Positions 1,641 to 44,414 of a DNA stretch of 45,677 nt are shown in pieces. Position numbers and translations under genes: made by a program. Each line of letters opens with the position of its first letter. Position 1 is the first letter of the stretch. The DNA comes from Sphaeroforma arctica JP610 (Eukaryota): NCBI RefSeq assembly GCF_001186125.1, contig NW_014040279.1, forward strand, positions 50,246 through 95,922, given 5' to 3'. The notes beneath the pieces are model-generated. The model was not told the origin of the DNA. It searched no databases and was given only the letters and a program-made list of their open reading frames with translations.

Positions 1641-1644
1641 GGCT

Positions 1645-13760: not shown

Positions 13761-14466
13761 ATTATATTTCTATTGTGAAATTGCATACCTTATACTGACA
13801 ATGCATAGCTGGATCTATATAATATACTGACTAGCGTCATTGTAGAGGATTGCCATATGGAGTCGTGGATTAAGACCACACAATCACATCCACAACTCAC
13901 AAGTTGCCACTCCTCCAAATGTAATCGAAAATTTGGCGCGTCATCATCAAACTAACTGTAGTTTACGACACAAGCACCTAATTTCCTGTCGTAAATATTG
14001 ATACAATATTGAATATTCTTTGGTATGGGCTGCCCCGCCAAAACTTTTAGGTCATAGGGTGATTTTACGACATGAAAAGCAATGCACGTGTACAAAATAC
14101 ATACATAGCTGGGATTCATAATCGCTAGTATCAGATCTCAGGACAGCGTACAGCACAGGGCAAAGGTTGCAGTCTTTGTAGAAGTATAGGACGATCTCCC
14201 CGTAGTTACTCTAATTGGTTATATATATATATATATATGAATATATATATATATATATATATACACAAACACACAATATATATATATATATAATTATATA
14301 CATATACATGTATATAAATACACACACATATAGTTTTATATATATATATATATATATATAGATATACATATATTTATACATAGGGATTGACAGCCACCAT
14401 ACATATAGATAGTGCTTGTACGCACACAAATCACTAGTACATCAATCCTAATATACAAATATCAAG

Positions 14467-15727
14467 ATGAAATTCACAAACGTGAACAATGTAAAGGTAT
14501 ACAATGTCAACACCGGCAAAAGTGTACCAGAATGGTTAACTGACCGCAAGAAGCGAGCATTAGTAAAAAAAGATGTAGATCTACAACAACGTGTACAGCT
14601 CATACAAGACTTCGATATGCCTACAGCAGCCACTCGCATCAAGATGTCGAGGGATCAGCAGTATTTGATGGCGTCGGGTGTATATAAGCCGAAACTCAAG
14701 TGTTTCGAGACCGCTGAACTGGGTATGAAGTTTGAACGTAGTTTGGACTGTGAGATCGTACAATTCCAGATATTAAGTGATGACTTCAGGAAAGTTGTGT
14801 TTCTGGAAGCTGATAGATATGTCGAATTCCACGCACATTTTGGACGCTACTTCAAAACGAGGATACCTGCACATGGACGAGATATGTCATATCATAGGTA
14901 GGTATTCAATACACAACACTGCGAATTTACGCTTTACTTCTAATGTGAAGTTGATCTATATATATATANNNNNNNNNNNNNNNNNNNNNNNNNNNNNNNN
15001 NNNNNNNNNNNNNNNNNNNNNNNNNNNNNNNNNNNNNNNNNNNNNNNNNNNNNNNNNNNNNNNNNNNNNNNNNNNNNNNNNNNNNNNNNNNNNNNNNNNN
15101 NNNNNNNNNNNNNNNNNNNNNNNNNNNNNNNNNNNNNNNNNNNNNNNNNNNNNNNNNNNNNNNNNNNNNNNNNNNNNNNNNNNNNNNNNNNNNNNNNNNN
15201 NNNNNNNNNNNNNNNNNNNNNNNNNNNNNNNNNNNNNNNNNNNNNNNNNNNNNNNNNNNNNNNNNNNNNNNNNNNNNNNNNNNNNNNNNNNNNNNNNNNN
15301 NNNNNNNNNNNNNNNNNNNNNNNNNNNNNNNNNNNNNNNNNNNNNNNNNNNNNNNNNNNNNNNNNNNNNNNNNNNNNNNNNNNNNNNNNNNNNNNNNNNN
15401 NNNNNNNNNNNNNNNNNNNNNNNNNNNNNNNNNNNNNNNNNNNNNNNNNNNNNNNNNNNNNNNNNNNNNNNNNNNNNNNNNNNNNNNNNNNNNNNNNNNN
15501 NNNNNNNNNNNNNNNNNNNNNNNNNNNNNNNNNNNNNNNNNNNNNNNNNNNNNNNNNNNNNNNNNNNNNNNNNNNNNNNNNNNNNNNNNNNNNNNNNNNN
15601 NNNNNNNNNNNNNNNNNNNNNNNNNNNNNNNNNNNNNNNNNNNNNNNNNNNNNNNNNNNNNNNNNNNNNNNNTTGTTGTGTGTGTTTGTATTTATTTACA
15701 TATATAAATAGTATACACACAGATATA

Positions 15728-15758
<31 letters not shown>

Positions 15759-18700
15759 CGTGTTTGGGTGTATAAGAACTGGTCATCATTTCTTATATCT
15801 GTTCTCTCTTTCATTTGTTTTGCTTTCTCCCAGACACTCACTACCTACTCATATCCCCTTTGTGCTTTACTTCGTAGTTGGTGTTTCTCATTACGTAGTC
15901 TACTGTATCTGGTATTTCGTATCTTTTGCTTTAAGGTTATCGTTCTGGCTTAACAATCATCGTACTGACATTGTCGGCTCTTTTTTCAATGATACTCTAC
16001 CTTATAGTGGTTCATGTGATCTATATCTCTGTGGGTCGTCACCTGATCTATGGAGATTAAATCTGGAGTCGGGGCGATTCATGGCCCCGCTGAGAGGCAA
16101 AGGCAAAGAATATAACGTTGTCAAAATCAGTCCAGCTCACCAACTTATAAGTAAGTAACCTATGTATTGCTGCTTCAATTATAATATATATATATATACT
16201 GGCTTGTAGTTTGTATGTACTCTACTGGCCATGGAATTCTGTAGGACGGTGTACAACCGAATATCGGTCATCGATCGTTGTCAGAGAGCGTAAAACCTTG
16301 TATTCCCGCACAACCCCCCTTCCCCCCCCCGAACACTCACACACATAGTCAATCTCTCAACAGTAAGACTGTTCCCATTTTACATATCTCTGTGCTCAGT
16401 CTCTTCATATCACTTATTATTAAAGGTCATTTTTTACACTCACTCATCAACTACAACAGCGTCGGGATCTACTACTGGCGGTGTGGAGGTTTGGGACCCG
16501 CGCACAAAGGAGTTAGCGTCGGGTCTGCGCTTGCCCATGGAGGACAATCAGACGGAGGAGGTAACCGCTTTGCGGTACAGCGACGACGGTATAAAGATGG
16601 CGGTAGGCACAAGCGGCGGCATGGTGTACATGTACGACATCCGATCAGACAAGCCGTTTGTGGTGAAGGACCATCAGGTATGGTGTGAGTGGGCTCTACG
16701 ATAGAGTTTCGAGAGTGTACGACTGGGATGTGTACTTCCTTGCCAAGACGTCTACATGCAATTAGCATATTGTAGTATGATATTTTGCGTCAGCGTCTAT
16801 GTCTGTGTCTGCATCTATGTCTGTATCTCTTTTTGTGTTTGTGTCTTTGTTTGTGTCTGTGTCTGTGTATATGCCTCAATCTCGGTTCTACTTCTCCTAG
16901 CATCGCCTTCCCGGTATTAGTCTCAATTATTCACTGTTTGTACCATCTCGTCTGCACTTATACCAGCACTCCTACCAGTTGATAGTCCTCAATTATTCAC
17001 TGTTTGGCACTTATACTATCTCGTCTTCACTGCTACCATCTCGTGAGCACTTCTACGGCACGTTTACCCGATATTAGTCCTCAACTATTTCTTGATTGTA
17101 CCGTCTCGTCTCCCCTTCTACCAGTACGGCTATCCAATATTAGACCTCAAATTCCACTCGTCCAAACGAGTGCTGTCCACTGATAAGCGGGTGATTAAAA
17201 TTTGGGATGAAACCGATGGCGAGAACTACACAGCCATAGAATCACAGCACGACATCAATGACACGTGTGTGGCCAATGACTCAGGTCTTATCATGACAGC
17301 CAACGAGGGCTCGGATATGCAAGCCTTCTTCATCCCCGATCTTGGTCCAGGTATATATATATATATATATATGTGTGCGTGCGTGCGTGCGTGCATGCGT
17401 GTATGTATGTATGTGTGTGTGTGTATGTATGTATGTGTCTATGTACCTACGTAATGTGGGTGTGTGAATTTTGTATACGTTCATGTGTATAAGTTGTGTG
17501 TATGTATGTATCTACGTACGTACGTCTGTAGGTATCTACGTATGTATGTGTACGTATGTATGTGTATGTATATATGTGTCTTTTTGAGAGCGATAATAAA
17601 GATAAACTTTGTACGAGTTGATGTGTGCATCAAAATCGCGTATTTGCATCGTTGTGTGTACGCTGGTGGCTGTACAAATGTGCAAGCCTAAGGGTATCAG
17701 TCTGTGTGCATCGTATACATATATGTGCTTGAGAGTGTGTGTACATTTTGATCGGGGCAGTCTCTTCTTTTCCCATGCGGATGTCGATTGCCAATACGTG
17801 CGTCTCCGTCCTTGAGCAAAATAAGATGCATGCGCCTGGTCCAAGGCATTTGTGAACTTTTGGCTGGACGTAGTACTCGCTTACTTATCAGTAGTAACCA
17901 ATTGTCATCTCACATAAACCCCCAGCGCCCAAGTGGTGCAACTTCTTGGATACGATATCAGAGGAGCTCGCACAAACGGACAATACAACTATATACGACG
18001 ACTACAAGGTATGCCCAAGCCCCCTGCCCTTTATCTTTAGTTTTGGGCTTGTGAGGTTCTCGTACTAGGCTTGGTTTCTGATGCACCTCTACCGCCTACG
18101 CTGCATTACATATTGTGCGTTGGCCGACACTACATGCATATAAATTATACGTACCTGTGCCTATGTCTACCTATGAGTTTGTTTAGTCATTGCTTGACCT
18201 GGTGTTACAGCTTGTCTCAGCTGTGGTCCGTCGTACCTTCCGTGTTGCGTATGAATGCGTGTCTTGTGTGTCCTGGTGTTACAGCTTGTCTCAGTTGTAT
18301 ACCTTCGACACCTTCGTGCCTCATAAGCTCCCCAGAAGCGCAGTGCACATAGTACGTGTGTGTGACTCGTGTATCGTATATAATCTGGTGAGAATAACAT
18401 CTGCCGTTTGTACCCAATACAAATCATAGTGCGACCTCTAGACAATTGGGAGTGATAAAGAGGGATATATGGTTCTTATATAGATTTAATTAATGGTCAA
18501 TTATCTACTTTGGCTCAAACTGAAATTTATGTTTAGGTATTTACTTTTATCAAACGCAAATTGTTTTAAAACATCTACCTTGATATTAATCGTATTTCTA
18601 TTCAAGTACCTGCCTGAATTGGAACCGAAATTTGTGTTTAGGTATTTACTTTTACAAAACGTAATTTATATTTGAAGTATCCATTTCAATATAAAACTTA

Positions 18701-19492
18701 CTTTATATCCAAGTAACATAATAAAACGTATTTTATTTCTAAGTCCCTACCTTAATATAGACCGTGATTCATATTCAACCCTCGGCCTTAATGTATAACG
18801 TAATTAATTGTTTACGTATTTACCTTACTTTGCATTAAACGTATCTGCCACAATTCAATCCTATTCTACACCACACCTTGCCAGTCTCAGAGTTGTAACC
18901 CATCTGCTATCCTCTCCTTTGACCACCCCCACAGTTCGTTAGTAAAATGGATCTGGAGACGCTTGGATTGTCCGATCTCATTGGCTCACGTCTGCTGCAG
19001 CCTTACATGCACGGATTCTACATGGATATGCGGTATGTACTTACAACTACAGTGTATGTGTGCTTGTTGGCACTAACATATACCTGTGTATGGAGTTGCG
19101 ACATGTACTTACAACGACAGTGTATGTGTGCTTGTTGGCACTAACATATACCTGTGTATGGAGTTGCGACATGTACTTACAACTACAGTGTATGTGTGCT
19201 TGTTGACGCTAACATATACCTGCGTATGGAGTTGCGATATGTACTTACAACTACAGTGTATGTGTGCTTGTTGGCGGTAACATATACCTGCGTATGGAGT
19301 TGCGATATGTACTTACAACTACAGTGTATGTGTGCTTGTTGGTACTAACATATACTCGTGTATGGAGTTGCGGCATGTATTTTCAACTACAATGCGTATA
19401 TGTGCTTGTTGGTACTATTCAGTATCTCTAAATATACTATACGTATGGATTTGCGACATACATTTCTATTTATATCTACATATTCATATATG

Positions 19493-19524
<32 letters not shown>

Positions 19525-21025
19525 CGGGTGTATATATACATAAATATATATATATATGCATGCATATAAATATATATATATATATATATGGTATTGTTAT
19601 ACAATACAGGTGTATCTGTATACCTTGAGCATATATGCATTCCTTATAGTATCTCTAATCAATGAGTACACCTTTCCTCATACAGGCTGTACCAGAAGGC
19701 CAAAGCGGCTGTGGATCCGTTCTCGTACAAAGACTACAGGAAAGAGGCTATCAAGAAGAAGATCAGCGACAAACGAGCCAACCGTATTGGTGTGGTGAAA
19801 AAGCTGCCCAAGGTCAATACAGACTATGCGAAGTTCTTGATACAGGAAGAAGCCAAGGGAGAGAGTGGCAAGAAGGATACGGTGAGTACATTGGATGTGT
19901 TATTTAAGTGTTGGTGTGTTGCACAAGCTTGGCCCAAGACCCGAAACATATTGTACGAAGTTATCGGTACTATAGATCAGTGTCGGGGAGGTCAAGAAAG
20001 ATGCAATACACAATTGTCCACATTATATATAAAGTGTTCAATGCCGAGTTTGGGCCGTGTATATCAGTGTGAGCCTTTATAAATGTAGATTGTTCATAAT
20101 TGCATAATATTGGCTGTAGGGGGGCGAGACAATTGCACAGAATTATTCTGTAGTACGCAGAAATAAAACATAACATGGCACGACATGACATGATGTGACA
20201 CGAAACGACATGACATGACATGACACGTCGCAGACAGAGGCTGACGTGGGTCAATTTCTCGCCGCTCTAATCGCGGTGGATATAGTTAACGTTATGTTCA
20301 CACTTATATAAGTTGGTCCTGCCGGCGTTTCTGCCACACATCCGAACTCACCACCCATCCCGATATGGAAATGCAGGAAATGGCGGGCAATGCGCTCAAG
20401 GACGACCGTTTCTCGTCGCTGTGGAGCAACCCAGAATACAGTGTGGATGCCACGAGTGAAGAGTTCAAGTATGTATCCCTGTGTGTTTGTGTGTTAGTGT
20501 TTGTTGTTTGTTGTCTGTGTGTTTGTATTTTGTGCGCTTCGTGTTTGTTGCTTGTGTGTTTGTGTTTTGTGCGCTTCGTGTTTGTTGCTTGTGTGTTTGT
20601 GTGTGCCCCGCAAGTCCAGCTCCGGACCGAATGTATGTATGTTGTTTGTTATCATATCAATGAATAGCCACGTTGCCATGTGCGCGTTTGTGTGTACTGT
20701 GAATACAGGTGTGGGGCATACGTATGCTGTCGTTCTCGTACCGCTGAATGGCCACTTGTCAGCGTTTGCGCGTGTATATCGAGTGTGTTTGCTACCAGTA
20801 TTTGGTACAAGCGATCTGTTGCGGCAGTTACTTGGCTCCTTGTGCGGCTGTACGCAGATACAATCAGTGACTGCTGCATTCAAGGAGCGTGTATGTGGGT
20901 TGTTGTTGCTGTTTGTGGTATATGGCTAATCAATCAAATGCATGATGCGCGTAGTCGTATCCATTGTGTGTGTATGTAGCCGATTCAACGAGTAGTGTAA
21001 TTATATATATCCAAATACACCCACA

Positions 21026-23749: not shown

Positions 23750-24390
23750 CAATATACTGTTGGAATGGTTTATATACTGTTGGACTGATTTATCAATTTC
23801 GTAGGAATGGTTAATATATATTTTTGGAATGGTTCATAAATTGTAGGAACAGTATATGTAGTGTTGAAATGGTTCGTATATTGCAGGAATGGTTATACAC
23901 TGTTGTAGTGGTTTCCATATTATTGGAATGCTTTGAATAGTGCTGGAATGGATCATATATTGTAGAAACAGTTACTTTACTGTTAGAATGATATATATAT
24001 TGTAAGAATGATTTTATTTATACTGCTGGAATGGTTTATATTTTGTAGAAATGGATTATATACTCTTAGTATGGCTTATACAGAGTTGGAATGATTTATA
24101 TATTGTAATAATTGTCTATGTACTGCTTTGAATATCGTTGAAATGGTTTATTTACGGTTACTGGTTTATTTTCTGTACGAATGGTGTTAATATTCAATTG
24201 GAATGGTGTATGTATTGTAGGAGTGGTTAATATATTGTAGCAATAGTTTATATACTGTTGGCATGGCTAAATAATGTTGTAGGAACGGATTATATATCGT
24301 AGGAATGGTTTCTATACTTTTGGAATGGTTTATTTAGTGTTGGAATGGTTTTTCTATTGGTGTAATAGTTCGTATATATTGAATAAACTG
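23750..24390. repeat. Degenerate ~20-bp tandem array (tatatattgtaggaatggtt)
   Basis: Roughly 30 variants of ggaatggtt-tatata(c/t)tgt between two convergent gene ends. Confidence 0.8.
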
Positions 24391-24883
24391 TTAAAATGGT
24401 CTATATATTATGCAAGGCCAGGGGAAACTTGTGATGATTTTGCGATGTAAAATGTTGAAATGGGTTATATTTCGTAGACATCGTGAATGAGCTGTAAAAT
24501 GTTGGACTGCACAAAATTCAAACCTCGCCTGAACAACGATATGCAGCGACGATAACTCAAGACCGGTTTTCAAATTAATGACAATGATTAGATAATACTT
24601 TTAATCCCAAACCAGGTTTATATTTCAATATTTTACAGCGAGGACAAGGCTGTATTCTCCTCCAAGGGTAGATAGTAATAAAAGTACTACACTGCTACCG
24701 TCGCTCTCACTGCTTCTTCCATGACGTTGCGCTTCTAACAGCAATCGACATCCGGGAACGCCAGCACGACTAGAGGTCCAGTAAGATATGATCGTAAAAG
24801 CCGCCAACGCTCGCACGACTACATATCGTCCTACCTACACTATACATATATACCGTCTCTTCTAAGAACATAACTAGAGTCAC

Positions 24884-27800
24884 TTAGATCGCATCGGCCG
24901 CCCCTCTCGGTCTGGACGACGGGGTGAATGCGGGGTCAGTTCCAGTTCCATTCGACGAGTCAGTGCCAGTCTTATCTTTACCGCCCTTGCGCTTTGTGCT
25001 CTTTTTCGAACTCTTCCTGTCCTTTTTCAACATGATAATCGTACCCGCAGCCGGTGCCCCGGCACTCGAGGACACGTCGTCTTGCACAGGCGAGTCATGC
25101 GGCGAGAACGGTGACTTGGCCCCAGACAGCGACGCAGGCGAATCAGAACCATAGTTGCCGTTCTGCGCGTACGCATTGGGACCCGTTGACATGGGCCGTT
25201 GAGATGGCAGTGGCGCCCCAGACACCGGGCGAGGTGTGACGTTCAGGCTTTCCTGGCTGGAGGACATGCCACCCCCGAGCTTGCGCACGTTGAATGACAT
25301 AGGCGCGTCGTCGTTGTTGCTGATGTCCAGCGACGGTTCCGGGTGCGTTTCGGCCCCAATTTTCCCAGGGGAGGGCACATGCTCTGGGGACTTGCTGGTC
25401 TCATCTAGGTGGTCCTCCGCAAACGACGACGTGCGCGCCACCTCACTCTCTGCGTCGGAGATGTTGTCCTCCGAGTCGTCGCTGGTGTCACTGACCCCGG
25501 TCTTCTGCGCCTGGGACGGGGGGTATACGGGTGCGAACGGCAGGCTCTTGGGCAGATCGATACTCTGGTAATCCATGGGATCGTTCGCCAGCCTGGCCGT
25601 ACTACTGCCCTTCTCGGACTTGGCCATAAAGCGCGGGTGGATAGGCGCGACAGTAACGCCCTCGTTGCTGACATTGTCCTCATCAGTATCGCGCGTGTGC
25701 GCATTACTATTCAGCATAACACGTTGTGAGTCGTTGGTCTGGGGAGCTCTGTGCGTGCCCGCTGACGCTTGCGCCGCATTGTTGTGCATGTACATCGGAG
25801 ACGCGTGCTGGGCCATTCTCTTGCCCTCGTATTGCGCGAAGGCACCTCCACCCATGTCATTGATCTTCATATCTAGAGGCAGTCCGCGCTCCTTCAACAG
25901 CCTGTTGCGGCGGATGCGCATGTACACCACCGCAAACATCGTCGACAAGCCACAGCACACTAGCATGGCCAGACCAGTCAGGATACTCGAGTACATGATG
26001 ATATAGTCTGAGTTGATGTTTGCCTTGGGTTTGTTCTCCTCCGCATGTAGAGCCGCCTGTACCTCGAACTGGTTGACCTCAACGGACTCCCCAGTGCTCT
26101 CGGCCTTGTGTATACGCGATTCCTCCTCTAACAAGTCCTGCAGTGAATAGCTGACCCTTGAGGCAATCTCCAGTTCGCTTTCCGCTCGATCACCCTCCGA
26201 GTATGTGGTACCATCGCCCTGAGGTGTCTGCCGCGTGCTGATAGTGCGGCGTCGGCGTCGGCCTCCCTCGGCCGCGGCCATGCCGTACTCGACCGCAACG
26301 GTCCAGTACACAGCCATGTTCACAGCCGGGACACTGGGCGTTGCACAGGTCATGGGACCACTCAGCCCCACACTGACCCGGATACGTGGGTACTCCCCTT
26401 CACTGGCACTGAACTCCTGGTAGACCGTACTCATGTCACCCTCCTGCGGCGCCCATACCGCGTACCGGTCACAGTCACCAGTGGTAGTGCGTGTCACACC
26501 CACCACGCTGGCGTCAGCGATAGACAAACCAGTGTTGGTGGGCTCTAGGCTGATCTCGTAGTAGGCTGTGCCGCCTAACTCAAAGTCCGAGCTTTCTGCG
26601 GTGGTGGTGAAGTCCTCAAGCGTGTACCGCACCTGAGGAATGAACCCGGCACTGATATACAACTCCTCCTTCTCGCACATATTCGCCGTGGTAATGTGGA
26701 ACGTCACCTGCGTGCCGTTCACCTGGGTCGTGTTCGAGGGACACTCGACGGGGATGCTGGCCATCATATACGCGTGCGTCAGATCGCATCCAGCGATGTT
26801 GGTGGTGACTGTCTGCTGGCAGTACTCCTGGGTCAGATCCTCGCATGGCTCGCTGATAAGTTTCCATTCCCCGGGGATAGGGGCGGCATAGATACCTTCT
26901 TCAGAAAGTTCATCCGTGTATCCGAAGTATCCGACGTGCAGGTTGCCCCCTGCCATAGTCACGTCCACGGCACCGTTCACGTTGGTACCCGGCTGCTGCG
27001 TGAGAACGGCTGTGCCTGAAGTGCCGGGCACAACCACCTGGAAGCTGCCCATACGCACGCGGTCAAAGGTGAAGTGGCCCAGACCATTAGTGGAGGCGGC
27101 CCGCTCAGACCCATCGGCCATGTTCTTGAGGATCACCTGCACACCACTGGCGCCCTTGTTGTTGTTGGACTTCTTCAGACAGCCGCTGATCTGGTTGTTG
27201 CTGTCCTTGCGACTCTGTCCGGCGTAGCCGTAGGGCACATAGAAGACGTTGTGCACCAAGAAGTTCTCGTTCTCCACCAGCTCCACATTGATTAAGCCGT
27301 CATGGCCAAACCCTGTTGTGGAATCGCCATCCGACACCAGACCATAGGCGTCGGGCACATACTCAGCGACAGCAACGATGAAAGCTCCCGAGGAACCAGC
27401 AGGAATGGGGATGGTGTACCCACCGAATTCGTCAGTCACCGCAGCGCCCACAACGGCGCCGCTGCTATCCTTAAGCTGCAGAATAGGAGCGGAATAGAAA
27501 TAAAGAGAATGCGTCAGGATTTAATCCGCGGATATCAGGGCATACACTTCAATCCCTAGAAACTACTAAAATGTGTGATATCGTGATAAACAGTCGCCCC
27601 TATTCAGTGTTGAATAGAAACTCGCACAAAAAACCCACATCCTGGCATCAATCTATTGACTAACGGTTGAGAGAGTGTAACTTACCCCGACGGCTAAGTT
27701 CGGTACCCCTCCACCGCCGATAGTGCTGACGGCACGTCCTGATACAGAGTTGGTGGGTGCGATGACGAATTCAAGATACGCTGCATTGGAACCATCAGCC

Positions 27801-30800
27801 TGCAGAAGAATCAGGATTGAGATTAGTATCAGTTGTAGGTATTCGTAGCTCAACCGAGTTTTAGTGTATGAATGTGAGATAGCGTCCACCGACACTGACG
27901 ATTTCTATAAATAATCAAACCATGGGAAGTGTGTATCTACCCTGTCCCTGTAAACCACATAAGGTGCAAAAGCACCCCTGTGACAGGTACTACAACACAC
28001 CCCAAATCAAAACAACAGAACAATTGCACATACCACACTACCAGTCTGGCCGTCCAGGGTGGCGTCTCCATCGTTGGCAATCGCCATACCCTCGGGGTAC
28101 GCCACAATGCTTACGACCGATAGACCTGACTCAAAGTCGCTAAAGGAATAGAATCCATCTACAGTGGTAGTAGTACTCGAGATGACATTGTTGGCCTCGC
28201 TTTGCATAGCCACACCCTCCACGCCCTGACCGCTGTGGTCTAGCACACGTCCAGAGATGCGAGTGGCATCCGAGTACACAAACGCATCTTGCTCGGTATA
28301 TACTTCGCCTGAGGCCAGGTCAACCACACGGTTGGGTGTACCGTAGCTGGGGCCACCCACGAGCGAGTACTCGCCTCCGGTGCCTGCAGTTGAAGGCAGA
28401 GTGATCACATACATACCCCCGGCCAGATTCTCAAACAAGAAATTGCCAGACGCATCCGTGGTGGCGACAATCGGCACGGTCATTCCGTCGCCTAGCAACG
28501 CCAGGTCCGTATTGGGCAGGAAGTCCACTACATAGTCCGTCTCATCCGCCCCGTCCTGTTTGATCACCTTGAGTTGTCCGCTGTAGGTGGCGTTCTGACC
28601 CACATTTGCCAGTGCGGGTGCGTCGTCATACTGGAAGTTCACGGCGGCACTGACTTCGTTAATGACAATTGCAATCTCTTTGCGCTCAGTATCAGAGCCA
28701 GCGATAGGGCTCCCGTCCATAAGGGTCTTGGGCACCACCACCTCATACGTGCCATCGATCTTATTGGTGAACGAATACACACCACGATCATCCGTGTTGG
28801 CAGTCTCAATCTCTTCGCCATCCTTGTACAGTGATACGGTGACGTATCCGGCACGGCGGCTCACATCTCCGTAGTACAAGATACCGGCCACACTGGCCTC
28901 GCCACTATAGTAGTAGTCCGGGATGTGTGTGGCGCTGCCCTGGGACACCTGGCACGTAGACTCGGGTCCACCCGCAACCAGTTCAAGCTTAGAAGCGGCA
29001 GTATCTCCAGACTGTAGTGGGGGCTTGATGGTGTAGGTACCCAGAGCAAGATCCGCAAAGACGAAGTCTCCGTTGTTGTCTGTTTTTACGACAGTCACCT
29101 CGTTATTGCTGTCCAATAATTGGATGTCTAGGAAAGAAGTTCCATTGGCAACGCTACTCGAAGACTTGGTTAGATCCACGGCACGCCCCGCGCAACTACC
29201 GGCACCTTGATCTATAAAAGGGAAAAGAAATAGTATGCAGTCAGGTCAACCCCATCCCATGTGTCTATGCATTCCGGATACGTACCTAGAACTATTTATT
29301 TCCAATTCTAAACCGGGTGTGAAAAAAAGAATCAGCCGTAAAAACCCCTCCTTGATATAAAACCAATACAGTACAAACAAGCAAAGAGATATCACCACAA
29401 AAACAACGCAACAACATACCCGGCAATCCCTTGGATTCACCCACCAGCTCGGTAGTACCCGTAGACCCAGAGGGAATGTAGCAGGGACCAGGTACGTACA
29501 ACTGTACCTGGAGTTTGGACACCTGAGCACCTCCTTCCATCAACTCGGCACGTGTGGGGACATCGAGATTGTCGATCAGACCAATGACTTCGAACGATTG
29601 ATCTTCCACGGACGAGATACCAAACGTATCCATCGCACCCTCACGCAGGGAATACTCGGGTAGTGTGCTGATGCCCATTTGGGTCACGGACAGCGTGGAG
29701 ACGGTCGCTGAGACAATAGTCATAGCCTCACCATTGCGCTCCACGGGATAGTCTAAGACCTCGCCGGGGGTATCGTACCGAACTTCCTCCGAATAGTACG
29801 CCTTCACGGCCGCCCTGTACTGCGTGGCGGTAGGCGTCTCAGTGATGCCGAAGTTACAATCACCAAATCGACTCACAAGCACGTTCATAGACACTTTCAT
29901 TCGGCAGGCATTGGTGATGTACATGTTATAGTCGCTGATAGCTTCTACAGCGTTGTTCTCGGTATTGCCCACTATATTGTCCATGATACCACAGCTCTGC
30001 ACGTGGATGTCATCCAGCACACGTCCTGCGTACACGGCACCTAGGTCTAACTCCAAAAACATCTTATTGTCTGCGAGACTGACAGCGGGTACTATAACAC
30101 CCACGTTGAAATCCGTGGCGGTCGCAACCGGATTGTTCAGTGCGCACCGACCATTTTCTCCCTCTAGGTAGATTCCTTCTAATTTTAGATCGACTGCGAC
30201 GTCTGAAGATGCGAATACGTTCGTTACCGCCGAGGAAATGATTGTATCCGTTGAATTGTCACCCCCGCCCATAATCGTAATTGTATTAATAATAGCTATT
30301 GTTGACTCTACTATATGTATACCGGGTGCTAGTACTAATGTGGCACCCTCAGGTGCACTATATATAGCCTCCTCTAAATCTCCAACTGCTACCGCTATGA
30401 CTACGGCTTCTTCCGCTGGTTCTTCGACTAGTTCCTGTAGACAAACAGAACAAGCAAAGTTTAAAATTTCGTTTGTATCCTTTCTCGAAACGAGACTGCC
30501 GTAATTTGACACTGATACTTGTGGCATTATGACTATGCAGGCATAAAATATTTCACTTCGATAACCAAGTCATATATAACTTAGGTATATTCGAATAGCT
30601 TTATTGCTAGTTGCACACAAGGAGGTGGACATATACAAATTAGACAAAATTGAGGCAATAACTACTGTAAAACCTATCGTAGACAAAAAACCCCCAAAAA
30701 CGAAGTCAACGCGGCTATTAGAAACATAGAAAATAATATCACACAAACACTCGCACTTGCAAAACAGGAACATTGCAATGAGCTGTCAAATCTCACCGGG

Positions 30801-35494: not shown

Positions 35495-35797
35495 NNNNNN
35501 NNNNNNNNNNNNNNNNNNNNNNNNNNNNNNNNNNNNNNNNNNNNNNNNNNNNNNNNNNNNNNNNNNNNNNNNNNNNNNNNNNNNNNNNNNNNNNNNNNNN
35601 NNNNNNNNNNNNNNNNNNNNNNNNNNNNNNNNNNNNNNNNNNNNNNNNNNNNNNNNNNNNNNNNNNNNNNNNNNNNNNNNNNNNGTTTCTTCCCATCAAT
35701 CTTTCCGGAACCACTACAGCGACTATGAGAGCCATACCATATGTTCATACATTGTATCATACATACTTGCCATTTTTGAAATAAATCCTATTATCCC

Positions 35798-36011
35798 TGT
35801 TAAGAGTACGTTTATAATTTACATACTGCTTAAGAGTACGTTTATAATTTACATACTGCTTAAGAGTACGTTTATAGCATAGAGTCTAATGTGGAGGCCC
35901 GGCTATAACATAGACAAGTTGTTCTTGGATCTCTAGACCCATATATTTGTGCACTATCAGCACTCACAGCACATATCATTGATCGACCTCGTGGTCGTTC
36001 AACATTTAACA
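35798..36011 (+). repeat. Putative 5' LTR (214 bp)
   Basis: Begins TGTTAA and ends TTAACA (inverted termini), contains a 30-bp tandem repeat x2.5, and lies just upstream of gag. There is no second copy to confirm it. Confidence 0.55.
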
Positions 36012-36238
36012 ACTTAGTTCTCGGCTATATGTTCACATTCAATGGATCGACTGGGCGAGACGAGAAATTAAGAACCGATGTCCCAACCACTATCCGAGGA
36101 ATAGAGCACCGAAAGGCCTCGACCATGGACTTTACAAGGGGTAATAAACGCCCCCGTTAACGTGTTAACGATGTCGAATTTAATTGCTTCGATCGCACAG
36201 CACTATATCAACCCGCAGAGGATTTTCATTCTGACGAG

Positions 36239-37406
36239 GTGACCGAACTTAACAAATCGGTCGACGATTACACCATTAAAATGGAAATCGCTCACGATGC
36301 GCATCATGCTGAGGATGTATCATATTTTGCTAATATGATTGCGATAAAGCAAAAGCGCATCGATCAGCTACTTCAGGCCCAACGTGGACAAGACCACATG
36401 GATAACCGGAAGTACAAAGGACAGATCAGTCGACTTAAGTCGAATTGGGATGCCAACAGTAAGAATTGGGATGCCAACAGTAAGAAGGTCGATTTTATAA
36501 ACAACCATGGCCTCGACACGCTAACCCGTACGCTTATTGCGTTTACGGTCATGCTGGAGACGAATGATATCGCTCCTCAGCAATGGATCTGTGTTTTAAT
36601 GCAGACGTTTGACCCTACAGGTACAAGTTATTTGATCCTGCAGCGACACCAACCTGAGGTAGACACTTGTCGTGACTGGCCAGCTGTGTGTTGGTTGGTT
36701 CCATTTGTTAAGTAAGGACATGCGTAGCCCAGGACTGAGTTTAATTTTAACTGAACCAGTTGAGAACACGCTCATTCAGAGTTATATTCTGAAGCTAGAT
36801 GCTGACCTGAAACGTCCAAATAAAACAAAGGACAAGGCACAGCGATGGTGCGAGTTCCTGGCTGTGCACGTGTTCTGTAAGAACATAGGGAATAACGACC
36901 GTGAGAGCCTGTACACCGAGTTGCGACGTAAACACGCGATTGAGACTCGAGACAAGGGACATGAAACAAAGTTTTATCTATCCTGACTTACGTGGGAACA
37001 GTTTTATGATACTGTATCCACCCTTTTCCCCGCACACCGAGTAACATCGAAAGGAAAAGTGGCTGTTAAGAAGCCGCGGGAACACACCGATCACGGATAC
37101 GTATCCAGGTAGACCTCAAACGAGAGACCCCAACATACACGTGCTCGCGACTCCACTCTATTCACGCGACCCAATAAACGGGCACTCGCGGAGGCGAAGG
37201 ACAAGGCACCTCCATTTAAAGAGGTTAAGAAATGTGCCGACGCACAGTGTGGGTATGACATGTACCAGTTAACCCCTAACGGTCATTGGAATGGTAGACA
37301 TGCATCCACCTGTACACACTTTCTTACTAAGTGTGACAAGTGTGAGAAGACCAATGGTTATCACACTAAGTCTTGTGACCGAAAGCCCAACATTAAGTTG
37401 GAGTAA
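36239..37406 (+). pseudogene. gag: gag (disrupted) with two Cys/His knuckle-like motifs
   Basis: ORF fragments 36239-36715 and 36672-36986, then KCADAQC...GRHASTC and KCDKCEKTNGYHTKSC, ending with TAA at 37404-37406. Confidence 0.6.
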
Positions 37407-40358
37407 CGGGACTACCATGTACAATCATTACACAGGCAATACAACGACTCTTTAGATGAGCGTGTAATAATCCCTGTAATAAAATCCTTGCGTTGATTGA
37501 TCCTGGTTCAGAAATTTCATGTATATCCGATCGCTTTGCAATAATGAAAGATATCGAAAGGAGACCACAAACAAATCACCTCATTTTAGCTGATGATAAA
37601 ACTTCTAAGTGTGATACCATTGCCACAGATGTTAAAATCTCCTTGGCCGATGATAGGAGTATCACTACCCAAGCTGTGATAGTTAAGATGTCACAGAAGT
37701 ACGACATTATAGTCGGAATGAGCGATTTACTCACTCTAGGTATAACCGTAACTGGTCTACGAAATAACATAGATCCATTAAAGGATCAGTCAGACGATAA
37801 CTGTCTGAATCCATATAAGCCTACGTCAGACACAGTCAAGGCATTAATACCTGACTTTGCGAACAAAATCATGGATCTGATTCTAGTTAATAAAAAGAAA
37901 ATGATCACAGATTGGGCAAAATTCCTTTTTAACGACGGGTATGTCAGCCTTGACTTAACCAAGGTGGACTGTACACAGTTAAAGTGTCCCTCAAGGAACT
38001 ATGTATCCTGGAGACATGAGGCTGTGGTAAAAGAACAAGTTGAGAAATGGCTAGCAGATGGAGTGATAGAAATTAACTATCAACAGACGCCAGTTAACTT
38101 GGCACTGCTAGCCGTAGACCAATATAACTCTGACGGATCGTTTAGGAAAGTCAGAGTATGTTTAGATATGAGTCCAATAAATAAATTATTGCCGACTCAT
38201 AGCTTTCACTTACCTCGTATTAACGAGCTACTGTGATAGATGGAAGGTGCTACAGTATTTACAACTATAGACCTTACACAAGGATACCATCAAATGCAGG
38301 TATATGAACCACATCGTAAATACTTTAGCTTTACGTGGAAAGGTAAGCAATACAGGTTCAGAGGTGTACCTTTCGGGTTACACTCTTTACCAGCATTCTT
38401 CCAACAAGTAATGGAAGAAATGTTTGCACACATGCCTAACGTACAAGTCTATATAGATGACATAGTCATCTTTTCTAAAACTAAGGGCGAACACGCCGCA
38501 TTAGTCAGACGAGTCCTTAAGAGACGCAACGAACAAAACTTCAAGATTAACGAGAAGAAATGTCACTTCGCCATGAGCGAAATACAGCTCTTAGGCTACC
38601 GAATATCTGGGGAAGGTATTAAAATCGACCCCGGTAAGGTAGAACACCTGTTAGATTGGCGAACACCAACTACATGAAGATATGTTAACAGCATGTGTGG
38701 GTTTGTAAACTTTTTTTCAGATGGAGTACCGCACTTGGCTGATTACCTTAACCTTTTGGACACTTAAGATGTCATAAAGGCAAACTAGGAGACTTGTGGA
38801 CTAAAGAGTGTGATGACGCATTTAAAGCGCTCAAGCACGCAGTCCAACAAGCCCCTGTTGTACAAGGACCAGTCGATGGCGTGCCGTTTGAAATAGCAAC
38901 GGACGCCTCCGACTTAGCCTTAGGAGGAGTATTATATCAGGATAGATAACAAACTTAGATATATACAATTCTTTAGTCGAGCAATGAATGCTTCACAGTT
39001 GAATTACCCAACTGTTAAACAAAAGCTATTGGCCATAGTGGCAGCTCTAACACACTTCCGAGATTATATATACGGAACAGTATTTACGCTGATGTGTGAT
39101 CAGAAATCTCTTCAATTTGTTAAAGAGGTGAACCCCGACTCACAATTACTGAGTCGCTGGCATGATACAATATCAAAGTTTCCTTTTGATATAAAACATC
39201 TGCCAGGAATACATAACCATTTACCGGATATGCTATCACGCTTCGTACCGGACTTTAATAAATCCGTACGTGAGTTACTAGCCATTGAATGGAAATGTAA
39301 TCCCAGGTGGTTTGAACTGGCTCAAAAGATATTTGGGCCACATACCATAGATATGTTTGCTGCACATCATTATGCACAACTATCGAATTACAGGACTTTA
39401 AATCATCCTTTGGGAGACGCCTTTCAAATAGACCTCTCCAAACATAATGCGTGGGCTAATCCACCATGGCAGTTAATTGCCCAGCTATTAAATTATGTTC
39501 ATATTCATAAAGCTACCATCACGTTGTGTTGCCCATTACGGAGTAAAGATCCATGGCTCAATAAACTAATAAGCATGATACAATGCGAGCCAATATATTT
39601 AGATAGGGAAGTAAATACTGTCCTATATCAGGGTACCCGAGCCGTCCAGAAGACGCTCTGGAGACATACTATAATATGTCGTATAGGTCCCATTGGAACA
39701 ACCAAATGGACCCCTTCTGAGACCTTCCTTAACAATGTCAAAGAATCAGAGGTTCCACTCTCTACCCAACTGAACGTTAAGCAGTTCAAAGGCAACACTG
39801 CACTTGAAGTCTGTGCACAAGAAATACAATCTACTAATGACACTACTGTTAAGAAGTGTCAGTCTCTAGCTAGGTAGAACTCTGTTTAATAACATAAAGT
39901 CCAAGCTCGAGTTCTTTCAAACCCTATTTCTAAAGGGATTAATGAAAGACAATCCTGAAGCGTATACACATATAATGCGACTATTTAATAAGTCATGTGT
40001 ATCTAGCGCACATGAGCGCACTTATGACACTCATGCGAAAGCAGGACAGGAATCTGAAAACACTACAGACTTAGAGACCACGCAAGTGGATTCTCAACAC
40101 CCTACCTTTATTCTGGAGGAGCAGAATGATGAAAACATTCTTGCTTGGCTGACGCAAAACCATAAGCTGAAGCACCAGAACATAGTAGATGCACTTAAAG
40201 ATGCGAAGTGAAATGGGATCGCGCACCCTAAGCTGGCAACTTTAGTTGACAAAGTATATCAGTCATGTACAGACTGTGATCGCAATCAGATCAAGCGCCA
40301 TGGGTTCGCACCGCTTAAAAGTGTGACTGAAGATGTTCCATGGCGCAGGGTCATTGAT
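37407..40358 (+). pseudogene. pol: pol: protease, reverse transcriptase, RNase H, Dam methyltransferase, integrase N-terminal zinc finger (disrupted)
   Basis: ORF pieces 37493-38236, 38240-38677, 38984-39877 and 39942-40211, continuing *NGIAHPKLATLVDKVYQSCTDCDRNQIKRHGFAPLKSVTEDVPWRRVID. Confidence 0.9.
39287..39690 (+). other. N6-adenine DNA methyltransferase domain (phage Dam / DIRS MT-like) inside pol
   Basis: EWKCNPRWFELAQKIFGPHTIDMFA (motif I) ... GDAFQIDLSKHNAWANPPWQLI (motif IV NPPW at 39458-39469) ... ATITLCCP...DPW, in the same open frame as RNase H. Confidence 0.88.
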
Positions 40359-40894
40359 TGCCATCTTTTTCAGCTTGTGACTTATGCAGGCGTTTACGCC
40401 ATTTTCGATTAAAGGATTTTAAATAGTCTTGATTATCGAAAGCATCTGAAGTCAACTCAGCTATTGTACCGTCTATAAAGCGTGTACGATAGTATGTATA
40501 GCCTCCCTTATCCGTTCTCCATATGATGTCTTTAAATTCAGAACAATCAAGAGGGGCATTCGAGTCATGTCTTCTTGCGAGTACAATCTCTGTAGTAGGA
40601 ATACGACTTGTGCCTATATTAAGAGCACTAGAACCATCGGGGTTATTTACCTCGTATGTTCCACTTTTAGTGTCTGCTACAGAGATTATATATGGACCTA
40701 TCCATTTAGATGTTAATACAGTAGCATCGAAATTACGTTGACGGATGTTAACTCTGTCACCGACCTGATACTCTGCTATCTTCTTGGTAGTGTTCCAACG
40801 CTTTTACCTTTTTAATAAGGCTATATTGCGTATTTCTCGCAAGCAAGGATATACAACGATAAAAATACGTTGTACCTTCTCTAACCATGGTAAC
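40352..40894 (-). pseudogene. Inverted integrase C-terminal region (GPY/F module + chromodomain-like tail)
   Basis: Minus-strand translation: PWLEKVQRIFIVVYPCLREIRNIALLKR*KRWNTTKKIAEYQVGDRVNIRQRNFDATVLTSKWIGPYIISVADTKSGTYEV...FKDIIWRTDKGGYTYYRTRFIDGTIAELTSDAFDNQDYLKSFNRK. Confidence 0.8.
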
Positions 40895-40944
40895 CTTTAA
40901 CAAGGACGAACCTGATCACCATGAGTTACCATGGTTAGAGAAGG
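40875..40944. repeat. Perfect 20-bp inverted repeat at the inversion breakpoint
   Basis: ccttctctaaccatggtaac (40875-40894) / gttaccatggttagagaagg (40925-40944). Confidence 0.95.
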
Positions 40945-42116
40945 ACACAAAGGGGGGCTTTTTTTAATAATATGCCATAGCCTTCTGATTTTTTTTAACG
41001 TTTATTGTTCAATTTTCAAAAGGTTTATCAAACAAAAAAGAAATGTTACAAAATACACTTTTTATATATTTTTTACATGAAGTGAGGCAGAGGTGAGGGA
41101 AGGAGAGAGAGCCAATAACAGAAACCCGATTCTGTACCACTCAAACCACAACAGAAACCACAGCTGCCTCGTCACTCATGTATTTAATTTATATTGCTTT
41201 TGAGGGCTGTGTACACACAACATTACACTTCACTATCCAGAGCATCCACACACAACACAAGAGATATAGAATGAGAAACCCCTCGAAAGAGTCCTGACTC
41301 TCTTTCTCGCCAGCTATAGATCATTTAGTGTCCGAGTTGTGGTGAGTTGATTATCTCAAGCGGAAGTTTATTCGAGATCTGTTCAGGGAAAGCGAGGGAA
41401 CTTCATAAAAAGGATCATTTTTCATATTGTAGTGCAGCAATGAACTAGATACTATTGACCTACCCTCCATGCACTCGTTGCTTTGTAAATATATTGGTCC
41501 AAAAGTTCTGATGAAAAACAGTCTAGCCTCTCCCATGGCAGTGTTCGCTAGACCTCAAATGCGTGTTCCTGGATCTTATGTATCTACTGTGTACATGGAA
41601 GTATATCCTTCCATACTGCCATTTCCGCCGGCTTTATGTAGGTCCCGTATGTATAGTCAATCTGGATTAATCTTATCCATCACAGCGCTGTGGGAGATAC
41701 TTTCCCTTGATCGTAACCATCCCATTCTCTCGCGATCGGTGCAATATAACTGGTATTCGTACCCTTGTATGGTCTATCACCTCGTGCCTGCATTGTATAT
41801 TACACGTGAGAAAGCCCTTTCGCTCGTTATATTTGTCAAATGGTGATTAGATTTTACACTCGAGCCAAGATAACATTCATCTAATGGTCAAGCAATTTTA
41901 AATTTTTATGACGACGTTGATACAACGAACATATGGTTTCTAATCCATGGCATAATGAAGACCAACCAAGTGGACAATTACAGGGATGTGCATACCTTTG
42001 TATGTATGAATATATATACATACATACATATAAAATAGGTATATACATGGAGGCATACATACATAACACTGCGAGGACGCCGCGCAATACAGAGACAATT
42101 GCATGAGTAGACTTAC

Positions 42117-44414
42117 TTTGTGCCAATCGTTATTGTAGGTAACAGAGTCCTCAGTGATGCATTGGTGTGTATACTGACGATATCGTGTAATTCGCTAACC
42201 TGTCGACAATCGGACGGCGACAGAGTGCGAGTGTTTATGTCTAAGAAGCGTAGTTTATTGTAATCGATCCTTCAGCGCAGCGTGGTTGTCCTTCTAAAAC
42301 ACCCCAGCAGTCACTTACAACCACGCATCTACAGAATGTATACAAACACACACAAACACACAAACACACACATAGATTATATATAGATATATATATATAT
42401 ATATTCATGTATTTATGGAAGTACATACATATATATATATATATTTATATATATGTATATGTATATGTATATGTGTTATATATATATACGGACGCTTGTC
42501 ATACCACAATGAGAGCCAAGGGGTATGCGGACGAGTCGCTTCTCGATATGCACATTGGTGAGAAACCTTTCGGCGTCACCAATAATCCAACAGTCTTCTG
42601 TGCGCGTCCTCCTAAAGCTCCTTCGATTTCGCGAACGTGCACTGGACCTAACTTCTTCTTGTAGTTCTTGCATTGTACCATTACACGCGTGTTTTTATCA
42701 AGTGATGACTGGTTATCCGTTCTGTTCTGCAAAGTGTGGGTGTTCCAGCGCTTGGTGGTATGAGTGTGAGAGGCGAGGGACATGTTCTCGGTAGACGGAT
42801 ATCAAGCTATTGGTATGGACAATATTTGCTACTAAAGTGAAGCTGCTAGCAGCACTCGGTATAATTTTCAGGCTCATTTGTACAGAACCATTTGAATGCT
42901 GTCGGTCGTTGCATATTCATATAGCTGCCGATAGATATGTACTGAGCCGTACAGACACCTTTGAATAAATGGTGCCCTGTACGTGTATAAAGGCTCGTTC
43001 GGCTACTTTCTCGTACACTCCTCGGCTCTTACACTATACATCAGCTAAGCCTAAAGTATTGGCTGGGGCAGATAGTTTGCTAACCTTAAGCTGACGCTGA
43101 GAAATATATGGTCAGTTTATATGTAAAGATAGCCGGAACTACACTCAGAGTTAATACCACATGCACCTTCTTATGGACAATCTCTAAAACACGCACGCTG
43201 AAGCTGCACCCCAATACCATTGAAAATTGTGGTACATTATATACCTTCAGAATAACACTTTCATTCAAATGTAGGCTCGGTTTCTACTTCAACGTGGACA
43301 ATTTCGAACCGCTCCACACCCTAAAGTATAGATCACATACCTCGTATGCATCACTTGGCAGGTGCCATGATCCAGCGAGATCAGCGCCTTTGTCGTTAGC
43401 CCCTCCCACGCGATCGAGGTCGAACATGTAACGGTGCAGCACAGCCTGGACGTGCTCTTCATACCTGGCAACACAGTACTGGAAATTAGAATAGTAGTTG
43501 GATGGGATAGGCGTAGAACATGGGTAAGCCTCTCATACCTGAGAACACATACTCGAGTGGTCAGAAAGGTAGTTGACCGGCATGTCCGCAAAGACTGAAT
43601 GTGTGCCTCATACCCAGATAGTCATATTCGACGATCAGAATAATCGTTGGATAGATATTCATAAATACTAGAAAGGATCAGGACCAACAAGAACAGACAT
43701 TTATTAAGTACGTTATCCAAGCAGTGCATGAAGGGTGCCTGTGTCAAGACTAGGCACGTTCATTGTAATTAAGGCACAAAACTACCGATTATTTTGAAGT
43801 AGTAGTTATTATGGGTTTGTATTAAAATTATTCAGGTTTTGATCAAACGGAGACTCACATCTGCAAGCAGACTAGTTTGCCAATGCCAATCAGACTGCAA
43901 TTGTCAGTATCCGAATCACGAGACATTATCCTCCATCAACGACGCGATAAAACAACGGATTGGAAGTGTGTTCTTCCTGTTTATGCATGTGCAATTTATT
44001 GGTTGGTCCTCGTCTGTTCAAATAAGTGATCTGACTAAATGCCAATACATGCACATTTTTGCTAGTGTATTGCGTTGCAGGTAGCGCTATAATACAAACT
44101 GGGCCATTGTGTGTGCCGTTGTCTGTTGCTCAAGACACTACTTGTGCTTTGTGAAGGGTATTCATGCCATGAGAAATTGGGCCCGATCAGATATAGTTTG
44201 CAATCAAATCCATATACGTGACGATAGCTACTACATTTTGAAGTAGCACTATATGGTGTATGGTAGTGACAGAAGTGCAGTCATTAGCCGTATGCGAGTG
44301 ACATGCAGGAATGTAGTTGAGTGAATGTGCATCACGCTATGCATGATCTTATTGTATCATGAACTAGTAGATATGAAGCAAACATCCCAGTATATCAATT
44401 ATACTGATCATCCA

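What the first reader, a model, noticed from the sequence alone, without database searches (positions are those of the whole stretch)
39287..39690. Gypsy-type (integrase) LTR retrotransposon carrying an N6-adenine DNA methyltransferase inside pol
Seen: in one uninterrupted frame (38984-39877) the RNase H end (DMLSR) runs into GPHTIDMFA...DAF..D...NAWANPPW...LCCP...PW. Known: this Dam-like domain after RT/RNase H is characteristic of DIRS elements, which integrate with a tyrosine recombinase and lack a protease. Seen: this element has an aspartic protease, an HHCC zinc finger (H-KLK-H...CTDC), a GPY/F module and a chromo-like tail, which is Ty3/Gypsy architecture. Inference: a Gypsy lineage with order PR-RT-RH-Dam-IN that captured or shares the DIRS methylase. 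It might 6mA/4mC-mark its own cDNA or insertion to protect it or mimic active chromatin. The catalytic NPPW is intact although the copy is otherwise decayed.
Basis: partly seen in the sequence, partly recalled or inferred. Interest (0 to 1): 0.9.

Follow-up and report, generated by a model that had tools for sequence, protein, structure and literature searches.

The report
Broken gypsy retrotransposon carrying adenine methyltransferase
This is a broken copy of a gypsy-type jumping gene whose intact relatives carry a conserved adenine-methyltransferase-like domain that likely marks the element's own freshly copied nucleic acid; the design is real, but a 2026 preprint already described it.

Summary
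One frame (38924-39877) runs from RNase H into a methyltransferase (MT) domain with DMFA and NPPW motifs; its model has an N6-adenine MTase fold. Two open-frame relatives link RT-RH-MT to a D-D(35)-E integrase, so it is not a one-off. The RT groups with integrase-bearing elements from Abeoforma, apart from 18 DIRS-like RTs (100/100). The MT is as conserved as RT (68% vs 62%; linker 30%). This copy is dead: four stops, three frameshifts, no DDE core, integrase tail inverted. Its clean MT frame is expected by chance (P 0.5-0.7), and the MT departs at 6 of 34 conserved columns. A May 2026 preprint describes exactly this, as the 'Ichthyosporean DAM-LTR lineage'; this scan also noted such elements on other DNA. 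Two small additions: the tail has a chromodomain fold although the preprint says the lineage lacks one, and the closest solved structure is the RNA cap methylase PCIF1, which may explain the preprint's negative E. coli DNA assay. Verdict: already known.

The parts
35685..40945 (.). Extent of the decayed element copy. The 5' end is uncertain (N gap at about 35496-35684); no LTR pair is found in the window.
   Evidence: Repeat-level contig cover from 35700 to about 40974 drops to about 210-225 on the flank (run X1); no long direct repeat
36161..37406 (+). Broken gag-like region with a C-x2-C-x6-H-x3-C zinc-knuckle-like motif at 37332-37376
   Evidence: Read from sequence; two of its ORF pieces scanned gave no Pfam hit; gag identity inferred from position
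37481..37730 (+). Aspartic protease (motif LIDPG at 37493)
   Evidence: Pfam RVP_2 E 5.4e-4; collinear with P0002, Asp_protease_2 E 1e-6
38015..38677 (+). Reverse transcriptase (YIDD at 38450), broken by two adjacent stops at 38234-38239 and a stop at 38675-38677
   Evidence: Pfam RVT_1 E 4.9e-27
38850..39241 (+). RNase H, with frameshifts near 38750 (upstream) and 38940
   Evidence: Pfam RT_RNaseH E 7.6e-19; frame changes against P0002
39281..39700 (+). N6-adenine methyltransferase domain (PF05869 / PCIF1 clade): motif I DMFA about 39350, motif IV NPPW 39458-39469; departs from the clade at 6 of 34 conserved columns
40161..40277 (+). Integrase HHCC zinc finger, in another frame (shift near 39875) and split by a stop at 40209-40211
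40338..40355 (+). First residues of the integrase core; the DDE core is missing after this point
   Evidence: P0002 982-1147 unmatched; loose ends of other copies continue into other sequence at 40354 (table 7)
40576..40893 (-). Inverted integrase C-terminal region: helix, then SH3-like GPY/F domain; one stop at 40804-40806
   Evidence: 57% identity to P0001/P0002; model residues 5-76 match MLV IN CTD, Z 6.8
40366..40545 (-). Inverted degenerate chromodomain-fold tail
   Evidence: Model residues 87-146 match SUV39H1, Rhino and Oxpecker chromodomains, Z 7.0-7.8, rmsd 2.0-2.3, 57-60 aligned; not detected by Pfam or by my chromodomain HMM
40895..40945 (+). Short forward-oriented integrase fragment ending in an inverted duplicate (23 of 24 nt) of 40871-40894; joint to unique host DNA
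   Evidence: unique-flank contigs begin at 40915-40916 in 3 of 4 runs (table 8); resemblance to the integrase read by eye

Best explanation
This is a dead copy of a Ty3/Gypsy-type retrotransposon family whose Pol protein carries an N6-adenine methyltransferase-fold domain between RNase H and integrase, and in live family members that domain likely methylates adenines on the element's own single-stranded or RNA:DNA copying intermediates so that new insertions would start in 6mA-marked, transcription-friendly chromatin. Shown here: the domain order, the fold, the RT placement, conservation of the MT in the family, and decay of this copy. Inferred: (1) the MT travels with RT/RNase H in the particle and is tethered to its substrate, since it is a bare domain of about 140 aa; (2) it prefers single-stranded or hybrid substrate, as its solved relative PCIF1 does; (3) host AMT1 keeps the mark after integration (the preprint's model). 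The host is likely an ichthyosporean such as Sphaeroforma. Odds: identity about 0.95; this mechanism about 0.5.
For: P0001 and P0002 are single open frames with RT-RH-Dam-rve (P0002 also PR) and D983-D1042-E1078; their MT is 64-70% identical to the window's. RT tree: window in a 13-row clade (100/100) with Abeoforma P0006 and P0011; 18 DIRS-like rows apart (100/100). The MT tree gives the same clade, 15 rows, 99/97. P0002 vs P0001 identity: MT 68%, RT 62%, RH 76%, IN core 57%, MT-IN linker 30%. Motif IV keeps Asn in 14 of 15 clade relatives and in 26 of 36 LTR-type MTs, against 23 of 88 DIRS-like ones. Fold: phage N6-adenine MTases, PCIF1 Z 10.1 against E. coli Dam 7.8 and T4 Dam 7.6. Literature: DAM-LTR copies carry more 6mA and are more expressed than other LTRs in S. 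arctica and A. whisleri (preprint); PCIF1 is most active on ssRNA, intermediate on hybrids and ssDNA, least on dsDNA (PMC11550742 passage).
Against: No activity has been shown: the heterologous E. coli assay was negative. P0002 has an open 1400-aa frame yet CPPW in place of NPPW, and 9 of 36 LTR-type MTs have F, H, C or K there, so catalysis may be dispensable in some lineages. Iyer et al. judged DIRS MT domains likely inactive. The 6mA enrichment is a correlation that host AMT1 could produce on expressed copies. The nearest relatives by sequence and predicted fold are phage proteins annotated as DNA methyltransferases, so a dsDNA substrate is not excluded. No LTR pair was seen and the host species was not tested directly.
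Confidence: 0.6

Rival explanations
1. The domain is an RNA methyltransferase like PCIF1/CAPAM: it adds m6A or cap-adjacent m6Am to the element's own transcript to stabilise, translate or package it, and DNA 6mA on insertions is secondary.
For: Top five Foldseek PDB hits and the top VIA hit are PCIF1. Some relatives hit Pfam PCIF1_WW (P0121, P0204). Iyer et al. place DIRS MTs in the PCIF1 clade. The E. coli DNA assay was negative.
Against: Phage N6-adenine MTase models match better (E 1e-7, TMq to 0.76) than viral PCIF1-like ones (E 3e-4 or weaker); PCIF1 may simply be the only solved member of the clade. The 156-aa model aligns across PCIF1 residues 233-656, so most of PCIF1's inserted part is absent, and no WW domain was found.
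Confidence: 0.2
2. The domain is a non-catalytic nucleic-acid or protein binding module kept for structure or tethering; the NPPW motif is a relic.
For: CPPW in open-frame P0002; F in 54 of 88 DIRS-like MTs; Iyer et al.; negative assay.
Against: Motif I (DxFA-like) and Asn-Pro-Pro are kept in 14 of 15 clade relatives whose MTs are only 30-46% identical to P0002 outside its nearest relative, which is more than a relic would be expected to keep.
Confidence: 0.2
3. This particular copy has been domesticated as a host methyltransferase gene, which is why its MT frame is open.
For: The frame 38924-39877 has no stop, and NPPW is intact.
Against: With 6-8 lesions in 2.9-3.4 kb a clean stretch of 935 nt arises with P 0.49-0.74; the copy departs at 6 of 34 conserved MT columns against 0-3 for 13 of 14 clade relatives; its ATG at 38984 lies inside RNase H.
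Confidence: 0.02
4. The gypsy-MT link is a misassembly or a one-off DIRS/gypsy chimera.
For: The window copy is rearranged, and no listed contig bridges the 40355/40360 joint in 4 runs.
Against: That joint is in the integrase, not at the MT. RH runs into MT in one frame, contigs of other copies span the RH-MT border (39206-39576 and similar, table 8), and P0001, P0002 plus 21 other proteins have MT followed by rve.
Confidence: 0.01

Closest known systems
Ichthyosporean DAM-LTR lineage (Fernandez-Moreno et al., bioRxiv 10.64898/2026.05.21.726589; Pirum gemmata, Abeoforma whisleri, Sphaeroforma arctica). Whole main text read; figures and supplements not seen.
   Same: Ty3/Gypsy-like element with a Dam-like domain; Asn-Pro-Pro pocket; RT and MT both group with Abeoforma proteins; a named S. 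arctica protein (SARC_02119, P0096) matches the end of the MT and the linker at 52% over 89 aa.
   Different: The preprint says the lineage lacks chromodomains; here the tail has a chromodomain fold and Abeoforma P0006 scores 24.6 bits on an HMM of 10 Pfam-positive chromodomains. This copy is a pseudogene lacking the DDE core.
DIRS1-type retrotransposon MT domain (Iyer, Zhang, Aravind 2016, PMC4738411; passages read)
   Same: Homologous MT right after RNase H (88 of 101 DIRS-like proteins hit my MT profile).
   Different: DIRS-like rows end after the MT and have no integrase core (0 of 18); RT is on a separate branch; motif IV mostly starts with F, not N.
PCIF1/CAPAM cap-specific adenosine N6-methyltransferase (PDB 6IRW, 6IRX)
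   Same: Closest solved fold (Z 10.1, rmsd 3.5, 142 aligned; Foldseek E 4.6e-4).
   Different: 12% identity; no WW domain; most of the inserted part of PCIF1 is absent; embedded in Pol.
Phage N6-adenine methyltransferases (Pfam PF05869, PHROG 111)
   Same: Best sequence and predicted-fold matches.
   Different: Stand-alone phage genes; 12-19% structural identity; their substrates are known here only from annotation.
Gypsy-DNMT3, SymbioLINE-DNMT and SymbioDIRS-DNMT3 cytosine-methyltransferase retrotransposons (PMC5890265; search listing only, names from the preprint text)
   Same: Retroelement that carries a DNA-modifying enzyme.
   Different: C5-cytosine enzymes of another family.

Membership tests
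Ty3/Gypsy LTR retrotransposons | Pol order PR-RT-RH-IN | tested here: met
   P0002 in one frame; window collinear up to the start of the IN core
Ty3/Gypsy LTR retrotransposons | RT related to Ty3, not DIRS | tested here: met
   Best PDB hit of P0002 is Ty3 Gag-Pol, E 6e-63; window RT scores 142-368 bits on its top 25 hits, at most 68 on DIRS-like; tree 100/100. The tree has no curated Repbase references.
Ty3/Gypsy LTR retrotransposons | DDE integrase with HHCC finger and GPY/F module | tested here: met
   D-D(35)-E in P0001 and P0002; core absent from the window copy, finger and GPY module present but broken or inverted
Ty3/Gypsy LTR retrotransposons | Two LTRs and a target-site duplication | tested here: inconclusive
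   No LTR pair in the window; 3' end lost, N gap at the 5' side; no genome held; no MT-bearing locus fetched
DIRS retrotransposons | RT in the DIRS clade | tested here: not met
   the DIRS-like rows are labelled by architecture (RT-RH-MT end, no integrase core), not by a verified neighbouring recombinase
DIRS retrotransposons | No aspartic protease and no DDE integrase | tested here: not met
   Both present
DIRS retrotransposons | Tyrosine recombinase ORF | tested here: inconclusive
   No such Pfam hit in the 9 element pieces scanned; not searched with a recombinase profile over all frames
Ichthyosporean DAM-LTR lineage | Dam-like domain in a Gypsy-type Pol, grouping with Abeoforma/Sphaeroforma elements | tested here: met
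Ichthyosporean DAM-LTR lineage | Described as lacking a chromodomain | tested here: inconclusive
   True by Pfam (no Chromo hit in window, P0001, P0002, P0006) but a chromo fold is predicted and Abeoforma P0006 has one by custom HMM; the description looks incomplete rather than membership failing
N6-adenine methyltransferases (PF05869/PCIF1 clade) | SAM-binding motif I and NPP-aromatic motif IV on a Rossmann fold | tested here: met
   DMFA and NPPW; D30 and P68 invariant in 36 rows; fold
N6-adenine methyltransferases (PF05869/PCIF1 clade) | Catalytic transfer to adenine N6 | not testable with these tools
   Published E. coli assay negative
PCIF1/CAPAM | WW domain and large inserted domain for capped RNA | tested here: not met
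   No WW hit; 156-aa model covers only the core across PCIF1 233-656
Chromovirus chromodomain | Chromo fold with aromatic cage for methyl-lysine | tested here: inconclusive
   Fold matches at Z 7.0-7.8, under the tool's caution line of 8, but covers 59 of 62 residues; the window, P0001 and P0002 lack the W and TWE positions seen in most clade relatives

The most novel reading that the evidence does not exclude
LTR-borne 'Dam' domains are single-strand enzymes of the PCIF1 clade that methylate the element's RNA or nascent cDNA inside the particle, which would explain why they did nothing to E. coli chromosomal DNA; and the ichthyosporean lineage pairs this writer with an unrecognised chromodomain reader, making it a cryptic chromovirus. 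In my sample the MTs placed between RNase H and integrase form one clade (33 of 33 rows, 98/98) while their RTs are scattered, which would also allow one capture followed by LTR-to-LTR spread rather than four or more captures.
Probability: 0.2. Interest if true: 0.7.

Novelty: already known. Interest (0 to 1): 0.22.

Why it matters
If the enzyme is active, a transposon would be writing an activating DNA (or RNA) mark on its own offspring, the reverse of host silencing, in a culturable relative of animals. That idea and this lineage were published as a preprint in May 2026, so this copy adds little. What remains open is the substrate. The PCIF1 kinship gives a concrete, cheap next test (single-stranded, hybrid and capped RNA substrates), and the chromo-fold tail is a small correction to the preprint's description.

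Tried and rejected
No whole genome is held, so copy counts, LTR pairs and dN/dS could not be computed; protein identity by domain was used instead. A near-length search with the MT part found nothing at E 0.001 among 11 candidates. Sequencing-run search: no RNA holder listed; no inference on expression is drawn. Summed contig depth is not a copy number and is used only for the element's bounds. No listed contig bridges the 40355/40360 inversion joint in 4 runs, but only 32 of 462 pieces were shown and a hole proves nothing, so real rearrangement versus misassembly is open. Locus searches: the MT alignment was too variable; P0152 in metagenomes gave 4 loci, none with an MT; P0189 in viral contigs gave none. 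None of 13 long DIRS-like proteins had a fused recombinase hit, so the DIRS label rests on architecture. The DIRS motif census was contaminated by later-fetched proteins and was redone. One RT-tree row (P0148) was first labelled MT-free but has a truncated MT; relabelled, the Dam-LTR label needs 7 changes, at least 4 forced. My chromodomain HMMs did not detect the window tail (-3.0 and -2.8 bits, within shuffles) or P0001/P0002. Sequence search of the MT against PDB found nothing at E 10. The protein atlas gave no answer. Domestication of this copy was rejected. Literature searches for a PCIF1 link to LTR-element MTs and for chromodomains in Sphaeroforma retrotransposons listed nothing beyond Iyer 2016, the preprint and off-topic listings not read; 'PCIF' and 'CAPAM' do not occur in the preprint's main text. 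The preprint's supplementary figures could not be seen and may bear on the chromodomain and origin points.

Full report
Observation. The stop-to-stop frame 38924-39877 (+) has 317 codons. It holds the end of RNase H (Pfam E 7.6e-19) and then a Dam-like segment (PF05869, E 3e-4 to 5e-4, below the curated cut-off). An AlphaFold model built on a 36-row alignment has pLDDT 92.9. Its best predicted-structure matches are phage N6-adenine methyltransferases (E 1e-7, TMq up to 0.76). Its best solved match is PCIF1/CAPAM (Foldseek E 4.6e-4; Z 10.1, rmsd 3.5, 142 aligned), ahead of E. coli Dam (Z 7.8) and T4 Dam (Z 7.6). The domain is real.

State of this copy. Against the open-frame relative P0002 the window is collinear from protease to the first residues of the integrase core at 40355. 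It has stops at 38234-38239 (two), 38675-38677 and 40209-40211, and frameshifts near 38750, 38940 and 39875. P0002 residues 982-1147, the whole DDE core, have no match. The integrase C-terminal part lies inverted at 40893-40366 with one more stop, followed by a short forward fragment ending in an inverted duplicate of 23 of 24 nt. Contigs from 3 of 4 runs support the joint to unique DNA near 40945. No listed contig bridges the inner joint (32 of 462 pieces shown), so the inversion may be real or an assembly error. No LTR pair is visible. The clean MT frame is unremarkable: with 6-8 lesions a gap of 935 nt arises with P 0.49-0.74, and the MT departs from the clade at 6 of 34 conserved columns, against 0-3 in 13 of 14 relatives. 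This is a decaying pseudogene, not a domesticated gene.

The family. A search with the MT part found 2 proteins among 41 candidates, P0001 (1376 aa, 70% identical) and P0002 (1400 aa, 64%). Both are single frames with RT, RNase H, Dam, HHCC and rve, P0002 also with protease, and both have D983-D1042-E1078 with 35-residue spacing. Of the 150 best hits of a full HMMER scan, 35 further MT-bearing proteins were scanned with Pfam; 22 have rve, 21 of them downstream of the MT. Tens of thousands of short contigs from one run lay on the element at 80% likeness or more (42,218 in X1), which indicates many diverged copies in the same organism, though not a count. Between P0002 and P0001 the MT is 68% identical, RT 62%, RNase H 76%, integrase core 57%, and the MT-integrase linker 30%: the MT is held as tightly as the core enzymes.

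Placement. In a 66-row RT tree the window sits in a 13-row clade (100/100) made only of MT-bearing elements, including two named Abeoforma whisleri proteins; 18 DIRS-like rows form a separate side (100/100). Those rows are DIRS-like by architecture: none has an integrase core; I could not verify their recombinases. The 24 MT-free LTR rows were 12 best and 12 random of 51; one was later relabelled. The MT-bearing label needs 7 changes on the tree, at least 4 forced by strong branches. In a 64-row MT tree the same clade appears (15 rows, 99/97); all 33 rows outside the DIRS side are non-DIRS, and the one LTR protein with its MT after the integrase (P0113) nests among DIRS-like rows. Both samples are biased (LTR rows by likeness to the query, DIRS rows by likeness to P0142), so this cannot count captures. 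The nearest named protein is S. arctica SARC_02119 (52% over 89 aa); an ichthyosporean host is inferred, not tested.

Prior art. bioRxiv 10.64898/2026.05.21.726589 (whole main text read; figures and supplements not seen) reports Dam domains in Ty3/Gypsy elements, names an 'Ichthyosporean DAM-LTR lineage' in Pirum, Abeoforma and S. arctica, finds more 6mA and more expression on these copies, proposes methylation of RNA-DNA intermediates with upkeep by host AMT1, and reports no activity in Dam-deficient E. coli. Iyer et al. 2016 (passages) put DIRS MTs in the PCIF1 clade and thought them inactive. Earlier notes of this scan reached the same preprint for other genomes (8 of 23 shown); none matched this sequence.

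Mechanism. I commit to the preprint-like model with one refinement: a bare MT tethered to RT/RNase H likely methylates adenine on single-stranded or hybrid intermediates. For: Asn-Pro-Pro is kept in 14 of 15 clade relatives and Asn in 26 of 36 LTR-type MTs, against 23 of 88 DIRS-like ones; PCIF1 is reported to be most active on ssRNA, intermediate on hybrids and ssDNA, and weakest on dsDNA (PMC11550742, two passages), which would fit the negative E. coli test. Against: no activity is shown, open-frame P0002 has CPPW, and the closest relatives are phage enzymes annotated as DNA methyltransferases. RNA methylation (0.2) and a non-catalytic role (0.2) remain.

The tail. The preprint says this lineage lacks chromodomains. 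Pfam agrees, and my HMM does not detect the window's tail. But the model of the tail (pLDDT 76.7; 84-91 over residues 91-140) has an SH3-like integrase C-terminal domain followed by a 60-residue domain whose three best matches are chromodomains (Z 7.0-7.8, rmsd 2.0-2.3), and Abeoforma P0006 scores 24.6 bits on an HMM of 10 Pfam-positive chromodomains (shuffles of the window tail: maximum 8.7). The window's subfamily lacks the usual W and TWE positions, so methyl-lysine reading is doubtful.

Verdict. A correct and sharp observation of a real architecture, in a dead copy, already described for this lineage. Interest 0.22.

Noticed in passing
window 37493; P0002 residue about 40: The protease motif reads D-P-G in both the window (LIDPG) and open-frame P0002 (LFDPG) instead of the usual D-S/T-G (usual form recalled); looks like a family trait, not decay.
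   Followed up: no
window 35891-35901: TGGAGGCCC just downstream of the 5' repeat region resembles a tRNA-Thr primer-binding site (motif recalled, not tested).
   Followed up: no
window 35797-35876: Tandem repeat of about 29-30 nt, nearly three copies, at the element's 5' end.
   Followed up: no
P0113 (1124 aa): Gypsy protein with the MT after the integrase; its MT nests among DIRS-like ones, suggesting a separate capture.
   Followed up: partly
P0004, P0009, P0010, P0016, P0020, P0023, P0025, P0030, P0109, P0124: Several other MT-bearing Gypsy groups from unnamed metagenome assemblies, many with Pfam-positive chromodomains and some with F, H or I substitutions in motif IV; hosts unknown.
   Followed up: partly
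window 24884-30569 (-): Large multi-exon surface-protein-like gene with bacterial-type SdrD B / carboxypeptidase-regulatory repeats and a C-terminal hydrophobic stretch.
   Followed up: partly
window 42499-42801 (-): Exon with RRG7 / Mrr-like restriction-endonuclease-fold domain (E 5.9e-13), about 1.6 kb from the element; probably an ordinary host gene.
   Followed up: partly
window 14452-20600 (+): NOL10-like host gene in many exons (Pfam E 6.4e-23 for the first); also a cupin exon at 9686-10129 and an alpha/beta-hydrolase exon at 5029-5406 (-).
   Followed up: partly
window 1624-1959, 18954-19462, 23758-24484: Minisatellites with 42-, 68- and about 20-nt units.
   Followed up: no
L001 1-123 and 5725-5847: MT-free Gypsy-type contig with identical 123-nt ends, probably a circularised assembly.
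   Followed up: no
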